From positions 352,001-416,000 of the forward strand of contig CBDBOV010000001.1 of assembly GCA_965208575.1 (NCBI GenBank): a DNA stretch of 64,000 nt. Reading direction: 5' to 3'. The notes below the pieces were generated by a model, which worked only from the letters and a program-made list of their open reading frames with translations, had not been told where the DNA came from and ran no database searches. Positions 8,985 to 20,550 of this stretch are shown here, piece by piece. This stretch comes from Spirochaetia bacterium (GTDB lineage: Bacteria; Spirochaetota; Spirochaetia; SZUA-6; Bin103). Position 1 is the stretch's first letter, and every line of letters starts with the position of its first letter. The translations under genes and the position numbers were made by a program.

Positions 8985-10787
8985 GTGCAGAGTACCGAAC
9001 GAGTCGGCCAGCGGGTGTCGACGCTGTTCGGCAGCACGTTGCGCCACACTCCCGCCGAGGCGGACCTGGAGTCGCACGCGCTGCTGCTGCGCGCCGGCTA
9101 CGTGCGCCAGTTGGCCGCGGGCATCTTTTCCCTGCTGCCGCTCGGCTGGCGTGCGCTGCGCAAGATCGAGCAGATCCTGCGCGAGGAGATGGACCGCATC
9201 GGCGGACAGGAGCTGTCGCTGCCGGTGGTGCATCCGGCCGACTTGTGGCAGGCCACCGGGCGCTGGCAGCAGATCGACGCCACCCTGGCGCGGTTCCGCG
9301 ACCGCCGTGAGCGCGACCTGGTGCTGGCCATGACCCACGAGGAGGCGGTGGCGTTCCACGCGGCTGCCGAGATCACCTCGTACCGGCAACTCCCGGCCCT
9401 GGTGTACCAGGTGCAGACCAAGTTCCGCGACGAGTTGCGCCCGCGCGGCGGGCTGATCCGGGTGCGCGAGTTCCGGATGAAGGACTCCTACTCGCTGGAC
9501 CGCGACCAGGCCGGGCTGGAGCGCCAGTACCGCGCCCATTACGAGGCCTACCAGCGTATCGGGCAGCGCACCGGCGTGCCGCTTACCGCGGTGCGCAGCG
9601 ACACCGGTATGATGGGCGGCGCGGTCGCGCACGAGTTCATGTACCTCACCTCCGCCGGGGAGGACAGTCTCGCGCTGTGCGGTCAGTGCGGTTACGCCGC
9701 CAACCGCGACGTGGCCGAGTTCGTCCTCGAACCGGCAGCCGGCGAGCAGGCAGCGCTGGAGGAGGTGCACACCCCCGGCACCGCCACCATCGACGACCTG
9801 GCCGCCTACCTGGGCATCGCGCCGCGGCAGACGGCCAAGATGGTGTTCTACGCCGCCGCCGCGACCGATGCGGGCGGAGCCGGTCATGCGTCCGGGACCG
9901 GCGCAGAGAGAGTTGCGGTGGTGGCGGCAGTCGTGCGCGGCGACCTGGAGGTCAACCCGATCCAGGTGCAGCACCTGGCCGGCGTGGGGGAGTTGCGGCC
10001 CGCCCACGAGGACGAGATCGCGGCCACCGGCATGGTGCCGGGGTTCGCGTCGCCGGTGGGCATCGACCCGGGAGCGGCGGCCTTCGTGGTGGACCGCCAG
10101 GTGGCGGAGAGCACCAACCTGGTGATGGGCGCCAACCGCGCCGACTACCACCTGCGCAACGTGTGCTGCGGGCGCGACTACCAGCCGACCGTGGTGGGCC
10201 CGGTGGCCGCCGCCTTCGACGGCGCGCCGTGCGCCGCCTGCGGCAGTCCGCTGCGGCTCGTCCGCGGCGTCGAGGTGGGCAACATATTCCAGCTCGGCAC
10301 CCGCTACGCCGAAGCGCTGGAAGCGCGCTTCACCGACGAGGCGGGCAGCGCTCACCCCATCGTGATGGGGTCCTACGGCATCGGCCTGGAGCGGCTGCTG
10401 GCCTGCGTCGCCGAGGAGCACCGCGACGAGCACGGCCTGGTGCTGCCGGTGTCGGTGGCACCGTACCAGGTCGCCCTGGTCGCCCTGGCACGCAAGGAGG
10501 AGACCTGGCAGGCGGCCGAGCGCGTGTTCGCCGACCTGGTGGCCGCCGGCATCGAGGTGCTGTACGACGACCGCCGCGCCCTGAGCGCCGGCGTCAAGTT
10601 CAACGACGCCGACCTGCGCGGCCTGCCGCTGCGGGTGGTGATAGGCGAGCGCTCCCTGGCGGCCGGCGGCGCCGAGCTGTCCCACCGCGGCCAGCGCGAC
10701 CGCCGCACCATCCCCCTGGACGAATTGCCCGACACGCTGCATGAAGAAATCACCGCGCTGCACGCCCCTCTCACCCTTGCACCATAG
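8985..10787 (+). CDS. proS: Proline--tRNA ligase (bacterial type with INS editing domain)
   Basis: SHALLLRAGYVRQ, QTKFRDELRPRGGLIRVREF, GVEVGNIFQLG, MGSYGIGLER and GVKFNDADLRG; start uncertain (8985 or 9015). Confidence 0.96.
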   Translation: MQSTERVGQRVSTLFGSTLRHTPAEADLESHALLLRAGYVRQLAAGIFSLLPLGWRALRKIEQILREEMDRIGGQELSLPVVHPADLWQATGRWQQIDATLARFRDRRERDLVLAMTHEEAVAFHAAAEITSYRQLPALVYQVQTKFRDELRPRGGLIRVREFRMKDSYSLDRDQAGLERQYRAHYEAYQRIGQRTGVPLTAVRSDTGMMGGAVAHEFMYLTSAGEDSLALCGQCGYAANRDVAEFVLEPAAGEQAALEEVHTPGTATIDDLAAYLGIAPRQTAKMVFYAAAATDAGGAGHASGTGAERVAVVAAVVRGDLEVNPIQVQHLAGVGELRPAHEDEIAATGMVPGFASPVGIDPGAAAFVVDRQVAESTNLVMGANRADYHLRNVCCGRDYQPTVVGPVAAAFDGAPCAACGSPLRLVRGVEVGNIFQLGTRYAEALEARFTDEAGSAHPIVMGSYGIGLERLLACVAEEHRDEHGLVLPVSVAPYQVALVALARKEETWQAAERVFADLVAAGIEVLYDDRRALSAGVKFNDADLRGLPLRVVIGERSLAAGGAELSHRGQRDRRTIPLDELPDTLHEEITALHAPLTLAP

Positions 10788-10922
10788 CGACGCGCGCTTT
10801 CAGCAGACGGGTCCGAACGCCGGAAACGGCAGAATTCGCATGGCCGGGATCGACGACAGACAGCTTGCAGGAACGCACGACGGACGGCCAACTCCGCACG
10901 CGGCCACGGCGTGGAGGCGGCG

Positions 10923-13250
10923 CTACCGCGCCGGCTCGGGCGGCGGAGCTGGTCCGTAGCCGTGGCACATGCGGTGGTGCGCCAGGCACGCAAGAACCAA
11001 GTTCTCCGGCTCCGGGCCGCCCCCCTCGGCAACCGGCAGCAGGTGGTGGATCTGTAGCAGGTGGGACGAATTGCAGCGGCGACCGGTGAGCGGGTCCCGA
11101 TAGCGGCAGCGCCCCCCGTCGCGTAGCCAGACGTGACGCCGGACAGCCGCCGGAATGGAGCGCCGCGGCGGCGGCCGGCGCGCGCCGAGCGGAACATCGC
11201 GGGTGCACCGCGGCGATGCTCCCCCCGGCGAGCCGCCCGCACCACGCGCCGGCGGCACGCCGCTGGCCAACTTCGGCGCCGCAGCCGCGGCCGACCGGAT
11301 CCGCGTCGCACCAGCGCCATCGGCGGAGTCGCCGCTGCGCAACTTCTGCGCCGCAGCCGCGGCCGGCCGGATCGGCGTCGCACCAGCGCCGTCGGCGGAG
11401 CCGCCGCTGCGCAACTTCTGCGCCGCAGTCGTGGCCGGCCGGATCGGCGTCGCACCAGCGCCGTCGGCGGGGCCGCCGCCGGCGCTCTGACCCGCCGGCG
11501 CCGCAGCAACGGCGGGCGCGGCCGAAGCAGCGCCACCTGCGCGGGTGCCAACTGCCCGTGCACCGCCCGCCGGGGCGACGGGCGCAACGCCGCGCACCCC
11601 GCCAGCGTTGCGGGTCGTCGCGGCCCGCGCCTGCGCCCCGGCGGCCGCGGCCGCCGCCACGACCGAGGCTGTGCGGGTCCGCTCCCGCCGCGACGATGCC
11701 GCCGTGCCGCCCGTACGCCCCCGCCTGCCACCGCCGCCCCGCGGGTCGTGCCGCGCCACCGCCTCGCGCACCAGGAGCGCCACCAGATCCCCCCACGACA
11801 TGCGCGGGTCGACGTGCGACCGCAGGTCCTTCAGTTGGCGCAGTCCCTGCTCGCACTCCTGGTCGATGCTCACCTTCAACGTGTAGCGGTCCGGCGCCAC
11901 CGCGCGCAGCGTGTCGCGCGGCGGTACCACCTGGGGAGCGGCACTCGCCAGCAGGCCGGCGACTTGGCGCGTGGTCATGCCGGCGGCCTGCTCGATCAGT
12001 TCGCGCTGGCGCCGCGGGTGCAGCAGCGCGGCGGCCGACACCGGCCCGGCCGACCGCTCCGGGCCGGAACACGGTTCCGGGTTGGAACACGGTTCCGGGT
12101 TCCGATCACCCCGCGACGGCGCCGGTGCGAGCGCAGCGGTGCGCCGCGGCTCCGATGGCGCCGCGACCGGCAACGGTACCGGCTCGGCGCCACCCGCCGG
12201 CGGCAGCAGCGGCGCGGCCGGGCCCTGGTCCGAGGCGGCCACGGCGGGATCGGGAGCGCGCACGGGTGCCGGACAGTGCCAGGCGGCTCCGCTCGGCTCC
12301 CGCCGCGCCGGCAGCGCATCGGCATGCCGGGCGCCGAGGTGCTGCGCAGCCGCGTGGCTCGCCACCGGCACTACCGGCGTGGTCGCCGCCTCATTACCCG
12401 TGAGACCGGGCCGCGGAACACACCCCGGCGCCACACGTGGCGCGTGCAGGGTGGCGGCCGTCGAAGCCGGTGCAGCGCCCGAGGTGGCGGCACTCGAGTC
12501 CAATCGGCCCACCGGCTGCGCACCCGCCGCTGCCGGGCGGGCACCGACTGCCGCCGAGTCGTCCGCCTCGTGGCCTCCGGCGTCACCGAGCGACCGCGCC
12601 GCCGGCTCGTCCGGCGGTCGGCTGCAGCCGTCGCTCACGGTGTGCCGGTCTTCGCGGCCCCCGGCGGCACGGGACGACCGCGCCGACGAGCCGTCCGATG
12701 ATGGTCCGCAACGGTCGCTCACCGTATGCCGGTCCTCGCGGCCTCCGGCGTCACCGAGCGATCGCGCTACCGGCTCGTCCGGCGGTCGGCTGCAGCCGTC
12801 GTTCCCGCCATACCGGTCCTCGCGGCCCCCGGCGGCACCGAACGACCGCGCCTCCTGGTCGACGGCGGCCACGCCGGGCGGCGCCGATGCCGTCACCGCC
12901 GCGGCACCGGCCATCCCCGCTCCCGACGCTTCGGCATCCTGGTCACCCGCTCCGCTCAGCGCAGCAGGCAGCCCATGCAGACCTTCGCAGCGCTCCTGAT
13001 CGACGCGCGCGCTCGCTCCCCGGCACTGGCGCTCGGCCGCCCCAAACGCGGTCTCCAACTGCGCCGCCGACGTCACACTCAGTTCGCCGCTGTGCAGCAT
13101 GGCCCGCACCCAGCCATGCCGCCGGCACAACCTCATGGTCTGAATACGCCGTTGCGCGGCCGCGTCGGTGAACCGCAACTCCCGCACCGCGTAGTCGAAC
13201 AGGCTCGAGAACCCGCGCCGCAGCGCCAGCCCGCGCCGGTCGATCTCGCA
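10923..13250 (-). CDS. HNH endonuclease-domain protein (DUF222-like N-region), 5'-truncated, with long Ala/Pro/Gly-rich linkers
   Basis: EIDRRGLALRRGFSSLFDYAVREL N-domain; C-terminal RSIPAAVRRHVWLRDGGRC...C...QIHHLLPVAEGG...NLVLACLAHH. The ORF part above about 13250 is antisense PLD sequence. Confidence 0.75.
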   Translation of the reverse strand, partial: CEIDRRGLALRRGFSSLFDYAVRELRFTDAAAQRRIQTMRLCRRHGWVRAMLHSGELSVTSAAQLETAFGAAERQCRGASARVDQERCEGLHGLPAALSGAGDQDAEASGAGMAGAAAVTASAPPGVAAVDQEARSFGAAGGREDRYGGNDGCSRPPDEPVARSLGDAGGREDRHTVSDRCGPSSDGSSARSSRAAGGREDRHTVSDGCSRPPDEPAARSLGDAGGHEADDSAAVGARPAAAGAQPVGRLDSSAATSGAAPASTAATLHAPRVAPGCVPRPGLTGNEAATTPVVPVASHAAAQHLGARHADALPARREPSGAAWHCPAPVRAPDPAVAASDQGPAAPLLPPAGGAEPVPLPVAAPSEPRRTAALAPAPSRGDRNPEPCSNPEPCSGPERSAGPVSAAALLHPRRQRELIEQAAGMTTRQVAGLLASAAPQVVPPRDTLRAVAPDRYTLKVSIDQECEQGLRQLKDLRSHVDPRMSWGDLVALLVREAVARHDPRGGGGRRGRTGGTAASSRRERTRTASVVAAAAAAGAQARAATTRNAGGVRGVAPVAPAGGARAVGTRAGGAASAAPAVAAAPAGQSAGGGPADGAGATPIRPATTAAQKLRSGGSADGAGATPIRPAAAAAQKLRSGDSADGAGATRIRSAAAAAPKLASGVPPARGAGGSPGGASPRCTRDVPLGARRPPPRRSIPAAVRRHVWLRDGGRCRYRDPLTGRRCNSSHLLQIHHLLPVAEGGGPEPENLVLACLAHHRMCHGYGPAPPPEPAR
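11259..11475. repeat. 72-bp tandem repeat x3 inside the HNH gene
   Basis: Unit gccgctgcgcaacttctgcgccgcag...gcaccagcgccgtcggcggag starts at about 11259, 11331 and 11403 (24-aa unit). Confidence 0.85.
12064..12103. repeat. 18-bp tandem repeat inside the HNH gene
   Basis: ggaacacggttccgggtt occurs twice (NPEPCS NPEPCS). Confidence 0.8.
12560..12852. repeat. 84-bp tandem repeat, about 3.5 copies, inside the HNH gene
   Basis: 28-aa unit ARSxGxAGGREDRxxxxDxCxxxxDxxx repeated. Confidence 0.8.
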
Positions 13251-13514
13251 GACGGTGTCAGCGACATCGCCGCGTTGCGCAAATTGTTGGATTTCGGCGC
13301 GCCGATCCGAGGTATTCGTGACCTGCACGCCAAGGTTTACCTGTTTGGTACTCGGCGGGCAATCGTGACATCGGCGAATCTCACCGAGGCAGGACTGTCC
13401 CGCAATCCAGAATTCGGGATGATTACCGACGAAAGAGCGGCCGTTCGAGCATGCCGAAGCTATTTCGATGATTTGTGGCAACGCGGCGGTGGCGCACCCG
13501 GCGCACCCAAGTAG
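13248..13514 (+). pseudogene. Fragment of PLD-superfamily (PLDc_2) nuclease
   Basis: ADGVSDIAALRKLL...DLHAKVYLFG...IVTSANLT...NPEFG...YFDDLW contains HxK, SANLT and NxE; no start codon of its own; visibly lower GC. Confidence 0.8.
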
Positions 13515-13680: not shown

Positions 13681-13848
13681 GGCGAAGTGGGCTATAGTTC
13701 CATTGGGTATATTGGGCCTCGGCTTCACGTAGTGATTTATACGGTCCGTGACGGTGCGAGGCGTATCATCAGCCTGCGCAAGGCGAACAAGCGGGAGGAA
13801 GCGAACTATGCCACCGCTCAAGCCGGACCATATCAGTCCGACGGATGA
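13681..13848 (+). pseudogene. brnT: BrnT toxin, C-terminal half only
   Basis: GEVGYSSIGYIGPRLHVVIYTVRDGARRIISLRKANKREE; in-frame TAA at 13645 and no start codon; overlaps the brnA start. Confidence 0.8.
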
Positions 13849-14131
13849 CGAGAACGCTGCAATCGACGCCGGCATCGCAGCCGATCCTGACACGTTTGAG
13901 TTGGACGCGGTGTGGTTCAGGCATGCGCGTCTCGCCTTTGAAGTCGATCCTGATCTAGCGACGCACCCCCGCGTTGCGAGTGACAGTCCGAGGTCTGCGC
14001 GAAGGGAGCGCGTCACGATCATCCTGGATGCCGACATTGCACAGCATTTCCGATCCACCGGGAGCGACTGGCAGGCTCGGCTAAACGAGACACTGCGTCG
14101 TGCCGTGTTCGGCACCGGCAGTCGAGCATAA
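13808..14131 (+). CDS. brnA: BrnA antitoxin
   Basis: AGIAADPDTFELD...RVTIILDADIAQHFRSTGSDWQARLNETLR. Confidence 0.88.
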   Translation: MPPLKPDHISPTDDENAAIDAGIAADPDTFELDAVWFRHARLAFEVDPDLATHPRVASDSPRSARRERVTIILDADIAQHFRSTGSDWQARLNETLRRAVFGTGSRA

Positions 14132-14248
14132 CTCTGCAAGGGATCGCTGGATAGTCCGCCGGGAGCGCCGGAGCGCCGCGGTTCGGATGGCATCCTCCCC
14201 AGATGGCGGCGCCGCCGGGGCGTCAACCACGAGCGCTGAGCGGATCAC
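14081..14248 (-). pseudogene. Possible VapC/PIN toxin N-terminal remnant
   Basis: GTG overlaps the antitoxin stop (GTGA); MIRSALVVDA resembles the first PIN strand, and the rest is not PIN-like. Confidence 0.4.
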
Positions 14249-14475
14249 CCCAGTTGCTCGTCGCGTCCCGCTCGCTCCTGTTCCAGCACTTGTGCTGCCG
14301 GGACGCCGAGCTTCGTAGTCGAACGTCCCGCGAACCGTCCCTGCCATTCCTGGCGCGCGAGTTCGCGTTCCACCGCGTCCAGGACCACCTCGCTCATTGT
14401 TCGCCTGCTCGCACGCGCGTGGCGGCGCAGGCGTTCGTGCAGTTCCGGGGGCACATTCTTGACCAGGAGGTCCAT
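14245..14475 (-). CDS. FitA/VapB-like ribbon-helix-helix antitoxin
   Basis: LLVKNVPPELHERLRRHARASRRTMSEVVLDAVE. Confidence 0.8.
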   Translation of the reverse strand: MDLLVKNVPPELHERLRRHARASRRTMSEVVLDAVERELARQEWQGRFAGRSTTKLGVPAAQVLEQERAGRDEQLG

Positions 14476-17154: not shown

Positions 17155-17832
17155 CTACCGGCGCGCGATGCGGCACGGCCGCCACCGCTTCGACCAGTGT
17201 TCGTCCGACTGCACGTGCCCAACGCGCACGCTCTTGCAGACGCTGCGCGGGAACTCCGCCGCCGGGAACCCTGCGGCAAGGCGCAGCACGACTCCCTCGC
17301 GCTCACCGCCGAGCGCTGACGGCTGACCGTGCGCTTCGCTGACGAAGTCGCGCACCTGCCGCACCGAGTCGAACGTCCCCTCAAACAGCACCGGCACGAC
17401 CGGGATGGCGTGCGTCGTGGCATACTCCGTCATCTCGTGGAACGAGCCGAACGACCCACCCTTGAGCCGCAGTGCGAACGCGTAGAACGTCCTGTCCTCC
17501 GGCACCGGGTCATACTCGATGCTGTGCACGCCGTAGATATCCTCGCCGTAGAGAAACACGTCAGGCTCGGTGACCTTCCATGCGTGGTGCTTCCTGACCA
17601 TCCCCAGCCACTTCGCCGCCGCAGGAGCCGAGACACTGCGCGCATACACCTCGCCCCGATGCAACAGCGTGTTGCTCCCATCCAGCTTCTCGGTAACCAC
17701 GACCGCCGGCCCCACGAACGGCTCCGGATCAGCGACTACATCGCCATGCCGGGCTTGCGTTGGCGAATAGAGCAAGTACGGCATCCGAGGATACTTCCAC
17801 CCCCGAGAGGCTACCAGGAGAGTTGCGCTCAC
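17155..17832 (-). CDS. ATP-dependent RNA ligase family protein
   Basis: KYPRMPYL N-motif; motif I TEKLDGSN; YARS; LYGED; FYAF; REGVVLR; VCKSVR. GTG start overlaps the upstream TAG. Confidence 0.85.
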   Translation of the reverse strand: MSATLLVASRGWKYPRMPYLLYSPTQARHGDVVADPEPFVGPAVVVTEKLDGSNTLLHRGEVYARSVSAPAAAKWLGMVRKHHAWKVTEPDVFLYGEDIYGVHSIEYDPVPEDRTFYAFALRLKGGSFGSFHEMTEYATTHAIPVVPVLFEGTFDSVRQVRDFVSEAHGQPSALGGEREGVVLRLAAGFPAAEFPRSVCKSVRVGHVQSDEHWSKRWRPCRIARR

Positions 17833-18317
17833 TATTCGGTTGTCGCCTTTGATGCATGCTGCGGGCAAAGCTGCCGGACCCTCACTCCCAAGTCGCGCAC
17901 GAGCGTTTCCTGCTCACTCCAGTCGCTGTCCGTGGCGTTGAGAATCTCGGCCTTGCCCACCACTGCGACCGCCAGGAACTTGCGATCGGATGGATCGAAC
18001 TCGTTCTCCGGTAGTTCCTCGAAGCTGCGGTTTTGATCGTTGCAGGGAGTGATCGCAACCCGACGCACTCTCGTCCCACCGTACATGTGATCATGAACGT
18101 GCTTGAAGAATGCATCTCCTACTCCTGGCGCTCCTGCGAAACTCAACCGACTCCGGTACTCATCGAAAATGAGACTGTTGTCGTCAAGCAGTATTGCCGC
18201 GTTCCCGCAGACGGCTCTCAGTTTTTCGACGCACGCCAGTTGACAAACTAGATCTGCGTGAGTGTCCTTTCCGTTGGCGGCGATAGCAACGTTGGTATCG
18301 ACAACGATATTGGTCAT
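17832..18317 (-). CDS. PIN-domain nuclease
   Basis: IVVDTNV, IFDEY, DPSDRKFLAVA and NATDSDW acidic active-site residues; ATGA overlap with the ATPase. Confidence 0.8.
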   Translation of the reverse strand: MTNIVVDTNVAIAANGKDTHADLVCQLACVEKLRAVCGNAAILLDDNSLIFDEYRSRLSFAGAPGVGDAFFKHVHDHMYGGTRVRRVAITPCNDQNRSFEELPENEFDPSDRKFLAVAVVGKAEILNATDSDWSEQETLVRDLGVRVRQLCPQHASKATTE

Positions 18318-19678
18318 TTCGTCGCGTCTATCCGCCTCTTGAGCGATGCCTCGGCAATCGCCGCGATCTCCCCCATATCGTCTCCGAAGAAGCGGTCGGG
18401 CCAGTTCTCTATTTCGCCAAACTCATTGAGGGAAAGGTCACTGAGTCTCGCTGCGCCAGCATCGTTGCCTACGAAGTAGAGTTTGATATCGGACGAAGCC
18501 GCTTCGCCTTCAGCGGCACGCCGTTGGAAGCGGCGAAGGAGATGCTCGCTGTGGCTCTCCACGACAATTTGCACGTTCCGTCGTCTGGCCACCGAGAGCA
18601 TGACATCGGCCAATCCGCTCTGCACCGAGGGATGCAGATGGATCTCCGGCTGCTCCATGAGCACGATCGAGCCCTCAGGTACATAGTACAACAGCACAAG
18701 CACGGGCAAGACTTGGGACACTCCGAAGCCGACATCAGTCAGCATCGTTTCCGGACTGGACTTATTCACTCGCACTCGGGCGTGATAGTAACTTGATCCT
18801 TGCGCGATCTCCTGGATCTCGAATGATTCGATCAGGCCGAGTTCGCGCAGCCAATGAGCAATCATCTCCTGGAACGTCATGAGGCGCATTCGCCATTGAA
18901 GGTTCCTCAACTCATTGTTAGCTGTGGCGGCCAGAATGGCGTCAATCGTGCGTTCTCCAGCACGCCCAACATCCTGGGGACCGACGCCGGACCATCGATA
19001 CTCGCGTTGAGGATGCTCGCGAAGAGGGCCAAGATAGTAGATACGGTCCATCAACCCCTCATATTCGGTTTCGAAGTCGCTGAGAAAACCTGTATCCTGA
19101 AATAGTGTTCGCACTCGGTCGGGGAAAAGATGCGTCTTGACCGGGCCTGGTAGCGCCCAACCACGGCCTCGGTTACGAGTAAAATATACCGGATGGTCGC
19201 CATCGGATCGGAGTACGTACTCGGTGCCATCCTCTGACCTAGGCTCGATCGCAAAGTCAGTGTTAGCGAATCGATAACGGAGACGTCGGGCAGTCAGAGT
19301 CGATCGCTTCAGGCCTACAGAACAGTTCAATTGAAGGTTGCGTCCGTGCATGAGAACTGCTGTCCGTTGCCCCGATGGATCGCTGACCTTCAGTGAGTCA
19401 GGAAGTCGCCACCTCAAAGTCCATTCGATATCGACTCTCTCGTCTCCGTTGTGGACAACATCCTGGAATCGTCCGAGGTTGACCAGCTCTGTGGGACCGC
19501 CAAAATCCAGTACCAAGCTCCGGTCGGTCGCGTTTTTTGTCTGCTTGAGCAAGAGCAGGAACTGAAGCAGGCTGCTCTTTCCGGAGCTGTTCGTACCGAA
19601 GACTCCGGTGATCCGGCCCAGCGGTATTCTCAGTCTACGCCATGCTTTGAAGTTGGTGAGGTGGAGTTCCTTCAACAT
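18314..19678 (-). CDS. ABC-type ATPase (AAA_15/AAA_21) with DUF3696-like C-terminus
   Basis: LTNFKAW, Walker A GTNSSGKSS, YLGPLR, DVGFGVSQVLP, Walker B LMEQPEIHLHP, VESHSEH, and C-terminal LNEFGEIENWPDRFF. Confidence 0.9.
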   Translation of the reverse strand: MLKELHLTNFKAWRRLRIPLGRITGVFGTNSSGKSSLLQFLLLLKQTKNATDRSLVLDFGGPTELVNLGRFQDVVHNGDERVDIEWTLRWRLPDSLKVSDPSGQRTAVLMHGRNLQLNCSVGLKRSTLTARRLRYRFANTDFAIEPRSEDGTEYVLRSDGDHPVYFTRNRGRGWALPGPVKTHLFPDRVRTLFQDTGFLSDFETEYEGLMDRIYYLGPLREHPQREYRWSGVGPQDVGRAGERTIDAILAATANNELRNLQWRMRLMTFQEMIAHWLRELGLIESFEIQEIAQGSSYYHARVRVNKSSPETMLTDVGFGVSQVLPVLVLLYYVPEGSIVLMEQPEIHLHPSVQSGLADVMLSVARRRNVQIVVESHSEHLLRRFQRRAAEGEAASSDIKLYFVGNDAGAARLSDLSLNEFGEIENWPDRFFGDDMGEIAAIAEASLKRRIDATK

Positions 19679-19686
19679 CCGTCGTT

Positions 19687-19714
19687 CTCCTATGTATAGG
19701 CGGCGAGTATATCA
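19687..19714 (-). promoter_or_regulatory. Extended -10 and RBS of the ATPase-PIN-ligase operon
   Basis: TGaTATACT (19714-19706) and AGGAG upstream of ATG 19678 on the minus strand. Confidence 0.5.
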
Positions 19715-19718
19715 CTTC

Positions 19719-20445
19719 TCATCGGATTAGATTCTGACTCCCAGGGAAGGGGTTGGTGCCCCAGATGTCGAGGTCGCGGACCAGGGTGCGGCCGGGAAGG
19801 CGGGCGAGGTGGACGATGGTGGCGGCGATGTCGGCGGCATGCAGGTAGATGCCGGGGGCCGTGCGGCGGGGTGGTGTCCTCGCCGGTGTCGGTCTGGCTC
19901 GGGTTGATCACCATGACCCGGATGTTGGAGCGGCGCACGTCGTACAGCAGCGCTTGCGCGAAGCCGTGCAGGCCGAACTTGCTGGCCGAGTAGGCGGCGG
20001 TGCCGGGGTCGGCCTTCTTGCCGTTCATTGAACTTATGATGAAGATGTCGCCGCGCTCCTTGCGCAGCATGCCCGGCAGGAACTTGCGCGTGGTGTAGAA
20101 AACGCCGGTCAGGTTGACGTCGATCACCCGCTGCCACGCCTCCAGCGACATGCTCTGCACCGGGCCGCCTCCGCCGCCGCCAGCGTTGTTCACGAGGATG
20201 TCGGGCGCGCTCCAGGTCTCCTCGACGGTGCGGGCGAGCGCTTCGATCGCGCGGGGGTCCGCCTGGTCGCACACCACGGGCATGCATTCGCCGTCGATGG
20301 ACGCAGCCGCCGGCTGCAGGCGCGCGGGCGAGCGCCCCGTCATCACCACGCGTGCCCCCGCCGCCGCGAACGCGCGCGCGATGTGCAGGCCGATCCCCCG
20401 GCTGGCGCCGGTCACGACGGCGACCTTGTCAGTCAGATCATACAT
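19719..20445 (-). pseudogene. SDR oxidoreductase with +1 frameshift near the 3' end (real or sequencing error)
   Basis: TGASRGIG, NNAG and YSASK. Removing one base from the G5 run at 19854-19858 restores HGPGIYLHAADIAATIVHLARLPGRTLVRDLDIW. Confidence 0.8.
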
Positions 20446-20550
20446 GGTCCCGCACCATACTCGTTTCGCGTAGGCACGGTCACTTCGCGGCTTCTTGCCG
20501 TCCCGCACTGGGCCCCGCAGTGGCGGACGACCCGAGCACTTGGACTTCGG

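What the first reader, a model, noticed from the sequence alone, without database searches (positions are those of the whole stretch)
17155..19714. Translationally coupled ABC-ATPase + PIN nuclease + RNA ligase operon: candidate cut-and-repair defence system
Seen: three minus-strand genes locked by overlapping stop/start codons (ATGA at 18314-18317, TAGTG at 17830-17834) with their own extended -10 and RBS. The ATPase and PIN genes are visibly lower in GC than the flanks, and the low-GC sequence starts abruptly in the 3' tail of the upstream SDR. Catalytic motifs look intact in all three. Known: ABC-ATPase sensor plus nuclease effector is the layout of PARIS (AriA/AriB), Septu/PtuAB and PrrC/RloC, several of which cut tRNA; T4 Rnl1/Pnk repairs PrrC breaks. 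Metal-dependent PIN nucleases are generally reported to leave 5'-P/3'-OH ends, which an ATP-dependent ligase can seal without a healing enzyme (reports vary among VapCs). Inference: an ATPase-gated PIN RNase with a built-in ligase that reverses or limits self-damage. I know of no named system with this trio. The ligase looks closer to host GC, so it may be a later or chance addition.
Basis: partly seen in the sequence, partly recalled or inferred. Interest (0 to 1): 0.82.

Follow-up and report, generated by a model that had tools for sequence, protein, structure and literature searches.

The report
HEC-03 phage-defence cassette with RNA ligase
The three overlapping genes are real: the first two are a known, tested anti-phage pair (a sensor ATPase plus an RNA-cutting PIN nuclease, called HEC-03), and the third is an RNA-joining enzyme that travels with one branch of that family and probably reseals the cuts, an idea already in print but never tested.

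Summary
Three minus-strand genes overlap at ATGA and TAGTG, all have intact catalytic motifs, and they sit on a cassette of about 1.9 kb with low GC.

The ATPase and the PIN protein match PADLOC's HEC-03 models end to end (E 4e-210 and 8e-67). HEC-03 is a two-gene system shown to protect E. coli from phages (Payne et al., bioRxiv 2024).

The ligase is not a chance neighbour.
- In a tree of 88 HEC-03 ATPases, the ligase-bearing loci form one supported clade: 24 of 26 rows. One exception is a decayed locus and the other is a contig end. The clade spans at least seven phyla.
- The linked ligases form a matching clade of their own.
- The GC step between PIN and ligase recurs in 14 of 15 trios from other phyla, so it says nothing about a later addition here.

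Within the window's own family the module is decaying. Six genomes keep an intact ligase alone, still under purifying selection, and one sister genome carries a deletion scar at this same locus.

Resealing of PIN cuts by the ligase is plausible but untested. Matelska et al. 2017 attribute such a proposal to Burroughs and Aravind 2016, which I could not read. This scan has met the trio at least six times before. Verdict: a new member of a known kind.

The parts
19706..19714 (-). TGaTATACT, an extended -10 look-alike upstream of the ATPase gene
   Evidence: Read by eye. The consensus scan reports no -35/-10 promoter on this strand, so this is not evidence of function.
19685..19690 (-). GGAGAA ribosome-binding site, 6 nt before the ATPase ATG
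   Evidence: A related GAGGAG plus ATG survives in the deletion scar of L042.
18314..19678 (-). ABC-type ATPase with a DUF3696 tail (454 aa): the HEC-03 ATPase, predicted sensor and regulator
   Evidence: PADLOC PDLC04148, E 4.2e-210, residues 1-452 on profile positions 1-455 of 458. Pfam AAA_15, AAA_21 and DUF3696. P-loop and the other invariant columns are kept.
17832..18317 (-). VapC-like PIN nuclease (161 aa): the HEC-03 PIN, predicted RNase effector
   Evidence: PADLOC PDLC04147, E 8e-67, residues 3-157 on profile positions 2-157 of 159. AF2 model pLDDT 92. The best PDB folds are VapC/FitB PIN toxins, probability 0.99-1.00, TM 0.43-0.52. Acidic residues D7, D45, E53, D111, D130 and D132 are kept.
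17155..17832 (-). Minimal ATP-dependent RNA ligase (225 aa, nucleotidyltransferase domain only). GTG start overlaps the PIN stop (TAGTG).
   Evidence: Pfam PF09414, E 4.8e-19, 69.6 bits against a cut-off of 27. Motif columns are invariant across 28 relatives. Foldseek top hits are all ATP-dependent RNA ligases, but weak (E about 1e-3, TM 0.34-0.42, model pLDDT 67). Start codon set by conservation.
17833..19743 (-). The ATPase-PIN block (about 1.9 kb) that is missing from three syntenic sister genomes
   Evidence: blastn and alignment against L040, L041 and L042. L042 keeps the RBS and about 55 nt of the ATPase 5' end joined to the ligase start.

Best explanation
This is a three-gene variant of the HEC-03 anti-phage system, carried on a horizontally spread low-GC cassette.

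Shown here.
- The ATPase and the PIN protein are full-length members of the HEC-03 families.
- The ligase is a conserved, co-inherited third gene of one HEC-03 clade.
- All three keep their catalytic columns.

Inferred from relatives.
- The ABC ATPase, probably through its C-terminal DUF3696 helices, holds the PIN nuclease in check and releases or activates it when a phage cue is sensed.
- The freed VapC-like PIN cuts RNA, most likely tRNA or rRNA, and stops translation.

Inferred, untested.
- Metal-dependent PIN cuts leave 3'-OH and 5'-phosphate ends. These are exactly what an ATP-dependent RNA ligase joins without a healing enzyme.
- The co-translated ligase would therefore reseal the system's own cuts. 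This would buffer leaky toxicity and let cells recover after an aborted infection.

My odds.
- HEC-03 identity: about 0.95.
- Real functional linkage of the ligase: about 0.9.
- Resealing of PIN cuts as the ligase's job: about 0.5.
For: Identity.
- PADLOC HEC-03 models match both proteins end to end.
- Payne et al. (bioRxiv 10.1101/2024.01.29.577857; passages read) report three things: HEC-03 lowers plaquing, both genes are needed, and expression with IPTG was apparently toxic.

Linkage.
- Among the 80 best of 556 ATPase relatives, a PIN follows in 78 of 80. A ligase follows the PIN directly in 20 of 80, or 19 of the 69 loci with at least 700 nt after the PIN.
- In the ATPase tree, the ligase-bearing loci form one clade with SH-aLRT 98. 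It has 26 rows: 24 with a ligase, 1 decayed (L081) and 1 contig end (L066). Ligase presence needs only 3 changes on the tree. When the group labels were shuffled, 0 of 500 shuffles clustered the ligase group as tightly.
- The clade covers Acidobacteriota, Latescibacterota, Thermodesulfobacteriota, Binatota, Gemmatimonadota, Alpha- and Gammaproteobacteria and the window's own family.
- Reverse test. Of 25 metagenome ligases at 60-80% identity, 17 have both ATPase and PIN upstream, 6 have a PIN or a PIN remnant, 1 has an ATPase fragment, and 1 has only 236 nt upstream. Of 68 at 57% identity or less, none has a PIN.
- The ligase tree puts the linked ligases in one clade (SH-aLRT 99) with the same sub-groups as the ATPase tree.
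- No other recurrent third gene follows the PIN in the 50 ligase-free loci.

Architecture.
- The ATPase matches NsnB (E 2e-61) and has DUF3696.
- In Menshen, AlphaFold 3 models place the PIN-like domain between two DUF3696 tails (PMC12065111; passages read).

Chemistry. ATP-dependent RNA ligases join 5'-PO4 and 3'-OH ends (PMC9931718; abstract as listed).

Pattern of loss in the window's family.
- Intact ligase alone: 6 genomes.
- Ligase intact with a broken PIN: 1 genome.
- Intact ATPase-PIN with a destroyed ligase: 1 genome.
- This asymmetry is what is expected if the ligase is the protective partner.
Against: - No experiment on any ligase-bearing HEC-03 is known to me.
- The HEC-03 that was tested is described as a two-gene system, and 'ligase' occurs 0 times in that paper's main text. 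The ligase is therefore not needed for defence in at least some branches.
- G415 (L134) keeps an ATPase and a PIN that align end to end while its ligase is internally deleted. Cells can evidently tolerate the pair without the ligase, unless the pair carries point defects I cannot see.
- Orphan ligases stay under purifying selection. L040 against L041, which share one junction, gives dN/dS 0.139 at dS 0.49. The ligase therefore has some use without this PIN.
- The end chemistry of this PIN's cuts is assumed from the family in general.
- The ligase model is mediocre (pLDDT 67), so nothing can be said about its substrate.
Confidence: 0.55

Rival explanations
1. The ligase is a stand-alone RNA-repair gene of the host. 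It merely sits next to, or hitch-hikes with, an ATPase-PIN cassette and has no functional tie to it.
For: - Six genomes of the family keep an intact ligase with no ATPase-PIN within 8 kb and no HEC-03 PIN anywhere in the genome.
- Orphan ligases are under purifying selection, with dN/dS 0.14-0.15 among L040, L041 and L042.
- The ligase has higher GC than the other two genes.
Against: - 24 of 26 rows of one ATPase clade, spread over at least seven phyla, carry the ligase directly after the PIN.
- The ligase tree mirrors the ATPase tree.
- Stop and start codons overlap.
- The GC step is a property of the cassette everywhere, seen in 14 of 15 trios.
- Ligases at 57% identity or less never sit beside a PIN: 0 of 68.
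Confidence: 0.07
2. The ligase controls the PIN or the ATPase as a protein partner, not by sealing RNA. It could act as an antitoxin-like inhibitor, or as a bait that a phage anti-repair factor attacks and so trips the system.
For: - Translational coupling suggests matched amounts of the two proteins.
- Orphan 'antidote' genes outliving their toxin is the toxin-antitoxin pattern.
Against: Every catalytic column of the ligase (K49, D51, G52, E97, E179, G180, K200) is invariant across all 28 aligned relatives, the distant L006 included. A mere binder would not need this.
Confidence: 0.12
3. The ligase is part of the attack. After PIN cleavage it mis-joins, circularises or AMP-caps RNA ends, so that phage repair enzymes cannot restore them.
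For: - Phages carry related ligases. Sister ligases at 25-48% identity occur in 28 viral-contig loci, so RNA-end chemistry is contested ground.
- Catalysis is conserved.
Against: - Orphan ligases persist and are selected without the nuclease. That is odd for a pure accessory of the attack.
- There is no precedent that I know of (from recall, not searched).
Confidence: 0.08
4. The trio is mainly an addiction or stress module, a toxin-antidote set that stabilises a mobile cassette or drives dormancy, and not a phage defence in this organism.
For: - The cassette has low GC, is patchily distributed and is often decayed.
- Here it sits between metabolic genes, an SDR and a PhyH, not in an obvious defence operon.
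- BrnT/BrnA and FitA-like toxin-antitoxin remnants lie 3 kb away.
Against: - The homologous pair was shown to reduce plaquing.
- ABC-ATPase plus nuclease pairs are a recurrent defence layout (discussion passage).
Confidence: 0.1

Closest known systems
HEC-03 (Hma-embedded candidate 03; Payne et al., bioRxiv 10.1101/2024.01.29.577857; PADLOC-DB v2 models PDLC04147 and PDLC04148)
   Same: - An ABC ATPase followed by a VapC-like PIN protein, in the same order and on the same strand.
- Both proteins match the models end to end.
- The pair was validated against phages, and both genes were needed.
   Different: - Described as a two-gene system; here a conserved RNA ligase is a third, translationally coupled gene.
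- Not embedded in an Hma system here: the flanks are an SDR and a PhyH.
- The window's ATPase is only 37-49% identical to most ligase-free relatives.
- Supplements are closed, so I could not see whether the tested locus had a ligase nearby.
PIN + 'ATP-grasp' RNA ligase + ATPase (+ HNH) conflict system of Burroughs and Aravind, NAR 2016 (gkw722), as summarised by Matelska et al. 2017 (PMC5499597, table entry PIN_3.COG1569)
   Same: The same three kinds of protein, and the same idea that the RNA ligase neutralises the nuclease's toxic action (passage read).
   Different: - I could not read the 2016 paper, so I cannot say whether its operons are this exact family.
- An HNH nuclease is listed there and is absent here.
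- The window's PIN hits Pfam PIN_3 only weakly: E 2e-3, 19.3 bits against a cut-off of 27.
Menshen (NsnA/B/C)
   Same: - The ATPase matches NsnB (E 2.2e-61) and shares the ABC fold plus the DUF3696 tail.
- In NsnC a PIN-like domain is predicted to dock between two DUF3696 tails (PMC12065111).
   Different: - No ParB-DUF262 NsnA gene lies next to it.
- Menshen's PIN-like domain lacks the acidic residues and carries a separate effector; here the PIN itself keeps them.
- Menshen has no ligase.
PARIS (AriA/AriB), Septu (PtuA/PtuB), Gabija, OLD
   Same: The same layout of an ABC ATPase sensor with a nuclease effector. Partial AriA, GajA and Old model hits (E 7e-28 to 4e-10).
   Different: - Their effectors are Toprim or HNH nucleases, not PIN.
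- The matches cover only parts of the ATPase and are far weaker than the HEC-03 match.
- None has a ligase.
PrrC / T4 Pnkp + Rnl1, and bacterial RNA-repair operons (RtcB/RtcA, Pnkp/Hen1)
   Different: - There the ligase belongs to the phage or to a separate repair operon and needs end-healing enzymes.
- Here the nuclease and the ligase are in one host operon and no kinase or phosphatase is present.
VapBC type II toxin-antitoxin pairs
   Same: The PIN fold is closest to VapC and FitB toxins.
   Different: There is no VapB-type antitoxin. The upstream partner is a 454-aa ATPase (Payne et al. say the same for HEC-03).

Membership tests
HEC-03 | ABC ATPase matching the HEC-03 ATPase model over its full length | tested here: met
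   PDLC04148, E 4.2e-210, 696.5 bits, residues 1-452 on profile positions 1-455 of 458. The next best hit, NsnB, has 206.6 bits.
HEC-03 | PIN-domain protein matching the HEC-03 PIN model | tested here: met
   PDLC04147, E 8e-67, residues 3-157 on profile positions 2-157 of 159. It is the only PADLOC hit. The control search over 14 well-known genomes gave 0 matches.
HEC-03 | The two genes adjacent, co-directional, ATPase first | tested here: met
   ATGA overlap at 18317-18314. The same order holds in 78 of 80 related loci.
HEC-03 | Protection against phages that needs both genes | not testable with these tools
   Shown for another homologue by Payne et al., not for this copy.
HEC-03 | Embedded in an Hma system (how it was discovered; probably not required) | tested here: not met
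   The neighbours are an SDR (adh_short) and a PhyH dioxygenase.
VapC-like PIN nucleases | PIN fold with the conserved acidic active-site residues (the D-E-D-D pattern as cited in PMC12065111) | tested here: met
   Model pLDDT 92. Top PDB folds are VapC and FitB. D7, E53, D111 and D130 (plus D45 and D132) are conserved in 24 relatives. The Pfam PIN_3 score is below its cut-off.
ATP-dependent RNA ligases (Pfam PF09414, covalent nucleotidyltransferases) | KxDG lysine motif and the further nucleotidyltransferase motifs (motif names recalled) | tested here: met
   PF09414 scores 69.6 bits against a cut-off of 27. E48-K49-L-D51-G52, G96-E97, E179-G180 and K200 are invariant in 28 sequences.
Named RNA ligase families Rnl2, Rnl3, Rnl5 (DraRnl/NgrRnl) | A family-specific extra domain beside the nucleotidyltransferase domain, and sequence membership | tested here: not met
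   The protein is only 225 aa. The PDB sequence search gave 0 hits at E up to 10. TIGR02306 (DRB0094 type) scored 19.2 bits against a cut-off of 151. Fold matches to Rnl3, Rnl5 and Rnl2 are weak, with TM 0.34-0.42.
Menshen | NsnA (ParB-DUF262) gene, and NsnC with an inactive PIN plus an effector domain | tested here: not met
   Only the NsnB model is hit. The neighbours are an SDR and a PhyH. The PIN keeps its acidic residues.
PARIS / Septu | Toprim (AriB) or HNH (PtuB) effector next to the ATPase | tested here: not met
   The effector is a PIN. The AriA models match only residues 254-381. NCBIfam PtuA scored 24.5 bits against a cut-off of 500.

The most novel reading that the evidence does not exclude
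The ligase makes this branch of HEC-03 a reversible defence and not a suicidal one. Cells would stop translation by cutting RNA and then mend it.

The same enzyme would also work alone as a portable antidote. Lineages that have lost the nuclease keep the ligase under selection, because it repairs cuts made by PIN-type nucleases arriving on other mobile elements or phages.
Probability: 0.3. Interest if true: 0.6.

Novelty: new member of a known kind. Interest (0 to 1): 0.33.

Why it matters
Most nuclease-based phage defences are thought to work by killing or arresting the infected cell. A defence operon that carries its own RNA-sealing enzyme could show how a cell limits the cost of such a system, or recovers from it.

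The enzyme would also be a minimal, single-domain RNA ligase with a natural substrate. The idea has stood untested since 2016, and the validated HEC-03 pair now gives a ready experimental frame.

For this window the result is mostly a correct annotation. It is a known defence pair plus its conserved ligase, not a new kind of system.

Tried and rejected
- Ligase start at ATG 17784, which would leave a 47-nt gap. Rejected: the upstream residues are conserved as protein, and orthologues have ACG at that place.
- 'Insertion into a host ligase locus'. Rejected as the simple story: L042 keeps the RBS and about 55 nt of the ATPase 5' end at the same junction, so the pair was there before and was deleted. 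The L040 and L041 spacer shows no remnant.
- Complex prediction on PIN + ligase, with my own alignments: no verdict, score 0.00. It is no evidence either way.
- The look-up of sequencing runs: no RNA holder listed, so nothing can be said on expression.
- Read laying on contigs of four runs.
  - One run of another organism code has a 2268-nt contig over 17509-19776 with 11 differences.
  - Joints that skip the ATPase-PIN block appear in metagenome runs. They were laid at 85% likeness with short sides, so I draw nothing from them.
- PDB sequence searches: the ligase gave 0 hits and the PIN only chance hits.
- The promoter and terminator scan found nothing on the operon strand beyond shuffled expectation.
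- Search for an alternative third gene in the 50 ligase-free loci: none recurs in more than 4 loci.
- Papers not held: Burroughs and Aravind 2016 and Krishnan et al. 2020. Their content is known to me only through citing sentences.
- Seven literature searches turned up no experimental paper on an HEC-03-type system with a ligase. From these I read passages of seven papers.
The tested HEC-03 locus and any census tables could not be checked.
Full report
**1. What is there**

Searches show three minus-strand genes.
- An ATPase at 18314..19678 (454 aa).
- A PIN protein at 17832..18317 (161 aa).
- A ligase ending at 17155.

The ATPase stop and PIN start overlap as ATGA. The PIN stop and a GTG overlap as TAGTG.

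I first took the internal ATG at 17784 as the ligase start, because tblastn matches began at residue 2 of that form. The alignment of the junctions and the translated upstream stretches show otherwise.
- The residues before it (W/L-K-Y-P-R) are conserved as protein.
- L040 and L041 have ATG exactly where the window has GTG 17832.
- L040, L041 and L042 all have ACG where the window has ATG 17784.

**2. Families**

- Pfam: AAA_15, AAA_21 and DUF3696 for the ATPase; a sub-threshold PIN_3 for the second protein; RNA_ligase PF09414 (69.6 bits, cut-off 27) for the third.
- PADLOC: the ATPase matches PDLC04148 at E 4.2e-210 and the PIN matches PDLC04147 at E 8e-67, both end to end. The ligase matches nothing.
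- These two models are HEC-03. Passages of Payne et al. (bioRxiv 10.1101/2024.01.29.577857) describe it as an ABC ATPase plus a VapC-like PIN. It is a two-gene system that lowers plaquing, with both genes required, and it was apparently toxic when induced. 'Ligase' occurs 0 times in the main text.
- The paper calls the ATPase 'A' and the PIN 'B'. The PADLOC model names are the other way round.
- NCBIfam adds nothing above its cut-offs.

**3. Structures**

- The PIN model is confident (pLDDT 92). Its best PDB matches are VapC and FitB toxins (probability 0.99-1.00, TM 0.43-0.52).
- The ligase model is mediocre (pLDDT 67, pTM 0.72). Its best matches are all ATP-dependent RNA ligases: Rnl3-type archaeal enzymes, Naegleria RNA ligase and T4 Rnl2. 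They are weak (E about 1e-3, TM 0.34-0.42).
- The ligase has no sequence relative in the PDB. It is a nucleotidyltransferase domain with no accessory domain.

**4. Is the ligase linked? The window's own family**

The ligase query found full-length orthologues at 65-89% identity in nine relatives, and pieces in four more. I fetched 8 kb on either side of twelve of them. tblastn gave three states.

- G406, G401 and G403 have the same neighbourhood as the window (Amt, DUF2961, SDR, ligase, PhyH and, in two of them, GNAT), but the SDR runs straight into the ligase.
- G405, G412 and G418 have ATPase-PIN-ligase in the window's order in other neighbourhoods. The PIN is in two pieces in G405.
- Six others have a ligase alone: intact in G421, G409 and G411, broken in G422, G420 and G423.

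The PIN model over the same 61 genomes matched G000, G405, G412, G418, G415 and fragments in G423 (a separate, more distant pair; see Noticed in passing). In G415 the ATPase and PIN align end to end, but the ligase is reduced to its first and last few dozen codons.

At the window's locus the homology to L040 and L041 stops at 19744 and resumes at about 17833. In those genomes 85 nt stand in place of about 1.9 kb.

L042 differs. It keeps the RBS, the ATG and about 55 nt of decayed ATPase 5' end, joined to the last bases of the PIN gene. That is a deletion scar. The pair was therefore present at this locus before G403 and the window's genome diverged.

**5. Is the ligase linked? Other phyla**

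One genome of another family in the same phylum (L006, GC 0.40) also has ATPase-PIN-ligase, with a ligase only 25% identical.

With an alignment of eight ATPases, the genome collection gave 556 relatives, of which the best 80 were kept. This sample leans towards the window's near kin, so its fractions are not frequencies.

Home-made HMMs run on six-frame ORFs found the following.
- A PIN after the ATPase in 78 of 80 loci.
- A ligase directly after the PIN in 20 of 80, or 19 of the 69 with at least 700 nt of room.

In the ATPase tree (88 rows, IQ-TREE quick search, SH-aLRT only) the ligase-bearing loci form one clade with support 98.
- It has 26 rows, 24 of them with a ligase.
- L081 lacks one. 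Its PIN alignment stops at residue 105 and no ligase remnant was found.
- L066 ends inside the PIN gene.
- The only ligase-bearing row outside the clade is L006, on a branch of length 2.08 whose place is unsure.
- Ligase presence needs three changes on the tree. When the group labels were shuffled, none of 500 shuffles clustered the ligase group as tightly.

In the 50 ligase-free loci no other gene recurs after the PIN.

**6. The reverse test**

The ligase alignment pulled 65 metagenome and 28 viral-contig loci, which I scored.

Of the 25 loci at 60-80% identity:
- 17 have both ATPase and PIN upstream;
- 6 have a PIN or a PIN remnant without an ATPase hit (two of these are on short contigs);
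- 1 has an ATPase fragment abutting the ligase;
- 1 has only 236 nt upstream.

Of the 68 loci at 57% identity or less, none has a PIN, and one (L203) has an ATPase fragment.

In the ligase tree (99 rows) the linked ligases and the six family orphans form one clade with support 99.
- It has 53 rows: 41 linked, 6 orphans and 6 others.
- Of those 6 others, four have under 710 nt upstream. L168 and L173 have about 3.4-4.0 kb upstream and no PIN or ATPase hit, so they look like true orphans.
- The clade is nested among unlinked ligases.
- Its sub-groups repeat those of the ATPase tree: the window's family with L052, L053, L055, L054 and L062; the three Gemmatimonadota; the proteobacterial set.

The three genes have therefore been inherited and transferred together.

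**7. The GC argument**

The step from about 0.56 (ATPase, PIN) to about 0.66 (ligase) is real. It recurs in all four trios of the family and in 14 of 15 trios from other phyla, where GC3 is 0.08 higher on average. It is a trait of the cassette, not a sign that the ligase joined late here.

**8. Mechanism**

Shown: family membership, conserved linkage, and intact catalytic columns in all three proteins.

Inferred from relatives.
- The ATPase is related to NsnB and carries DUF3696.
- For Menshen, AlphaFold 3 models place a PIN-like domain between two DUF3696 tails, as solved for Septu and PARIS (PMC12065111; passages read).
- The ATPase therefore probably holds and gates the PIN.

Inferred from general enzymology (recalled). 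Metal-dependent PIN nucleases hydrolyse to 3'-OH and 5'-phosphate ends. ATP-dependent RNA ligases join exactly these ends (PMC9931718; abstract in the listing). No healing enzyme would then be needed.

The pattern of decay fits a protective ligase. Orphan intact ligases are common (six in the family), whereas an intact pair with a dead ligase was seen once.

Two facts argue that the ligase is neither strictly required nor used only for this purpose.
- G415 is the one case of an intact pair with a dead ligase.
- Orphan ligases are still under purifying selection. L040 against L041 share one junction, so all their divergence accrued in the orphan state, and they give dN/dS 0.139 at dS 0.49. Trio pairs give 0.15-0.27.

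**9. Novelty**

- The pair is a named, validated system.
- Matelska et al. [quoted passage not shown] They cite Burroughs and Aravind 2016 for proposing this as a conflict system in which the RNA ligase neutralises the nucleases.
[quoted passage not shown] I take the latter to mean ligases of this type.
- I could not read the 2016 paper.
- This scan has reported the same trio on other DNA at least six times, and two of those reports were later marked as in print.
- My seven literature searches found no experimental test of the ligase.

What this window adds is the history within one bacterial family: the deletion scar, repeated loss of the nuclease pair, and selection on the orphan ligase.

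**10. Verdict**

This is a new member of a known kind and of moderate-to-low interest. The resealing role is the best available reading, at about even odds.

Noticed in passing
window 19853-19857 (minus-strand SDR gene 19720..20508): The SDR upstream of the cassette has one extra C in a C-run compared with L040, L041 and L042. The listed ORF therefore runs into a wrong-frame tail, while the true C-terminus (…GIYLHAADIAATIVHLARLPG…) is in the +1 frame and stops at about 19720. Contigs of two other runs lack the extra base. In the probable source run the main contig has it and a depth-2 contig does not. It is either a real frameshift or a homopolymer error.
   Followed up: partly
window 13687-14131 (+) and 14245-14475 (-): About 3 kb beyond the ligase, in a low-GC patch, lie three toxin-antitoxin remnants: a BrnT toxin fragment (only profile positions 44-77 of 77), a BrnA antitoxin, and a FitA-like ribbon-helix-helix antitoxin with no PIN partner beside it.
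   Followed up: partly
window 12726-13514 (+) and 10923-13481 (-): A PLD-like nuclease domain (only the C-terminal part matches) overlaps on the other strand an 852-aa repeat-rich ORF whose end looks like an HNH motif by eye.
   Followed up: no
L043 (G405) 10377-10808: This genome has a second, broken copy of the ligase about 2 kb after the first, beside a trio whose PIN is in two pieces.
   Followed up: no
L136 (G423): A second, more distant ATPase (46% identity) plus a broken PIN (31-35% identity) sits elsewhere in a family member whose ligase is also broken.
   Followed up: no
L179-L185, L208, L210-L212, L216: Sister ligases (43-47% identity), several of them on very large 'viral' contigs, lie in a conserved block. 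Its genes include a nucleoside 2-deoxyribosyltransferase-like protein, an isochorismatase-like protein, a cytidylyltransferase-like protein and several unknown proteins. Another sister group lies next to an Hsp20 gene.
   Followed up: partly
PADLOC models PDLC04147 and PDLC04148: The model named HEC-03A matches the PIN and HEC-03B matches the ATPase, whereas the paper's text calls the ATPase HEC-03A and the PIN HEC-03B.
   Followed up: yes
window 17509-19776: A run filed under another organism code holds a 2268-nt contig with only 11 differences over the cassette. Partial holders are marine and sponge metagenomes.
   Followed up: no
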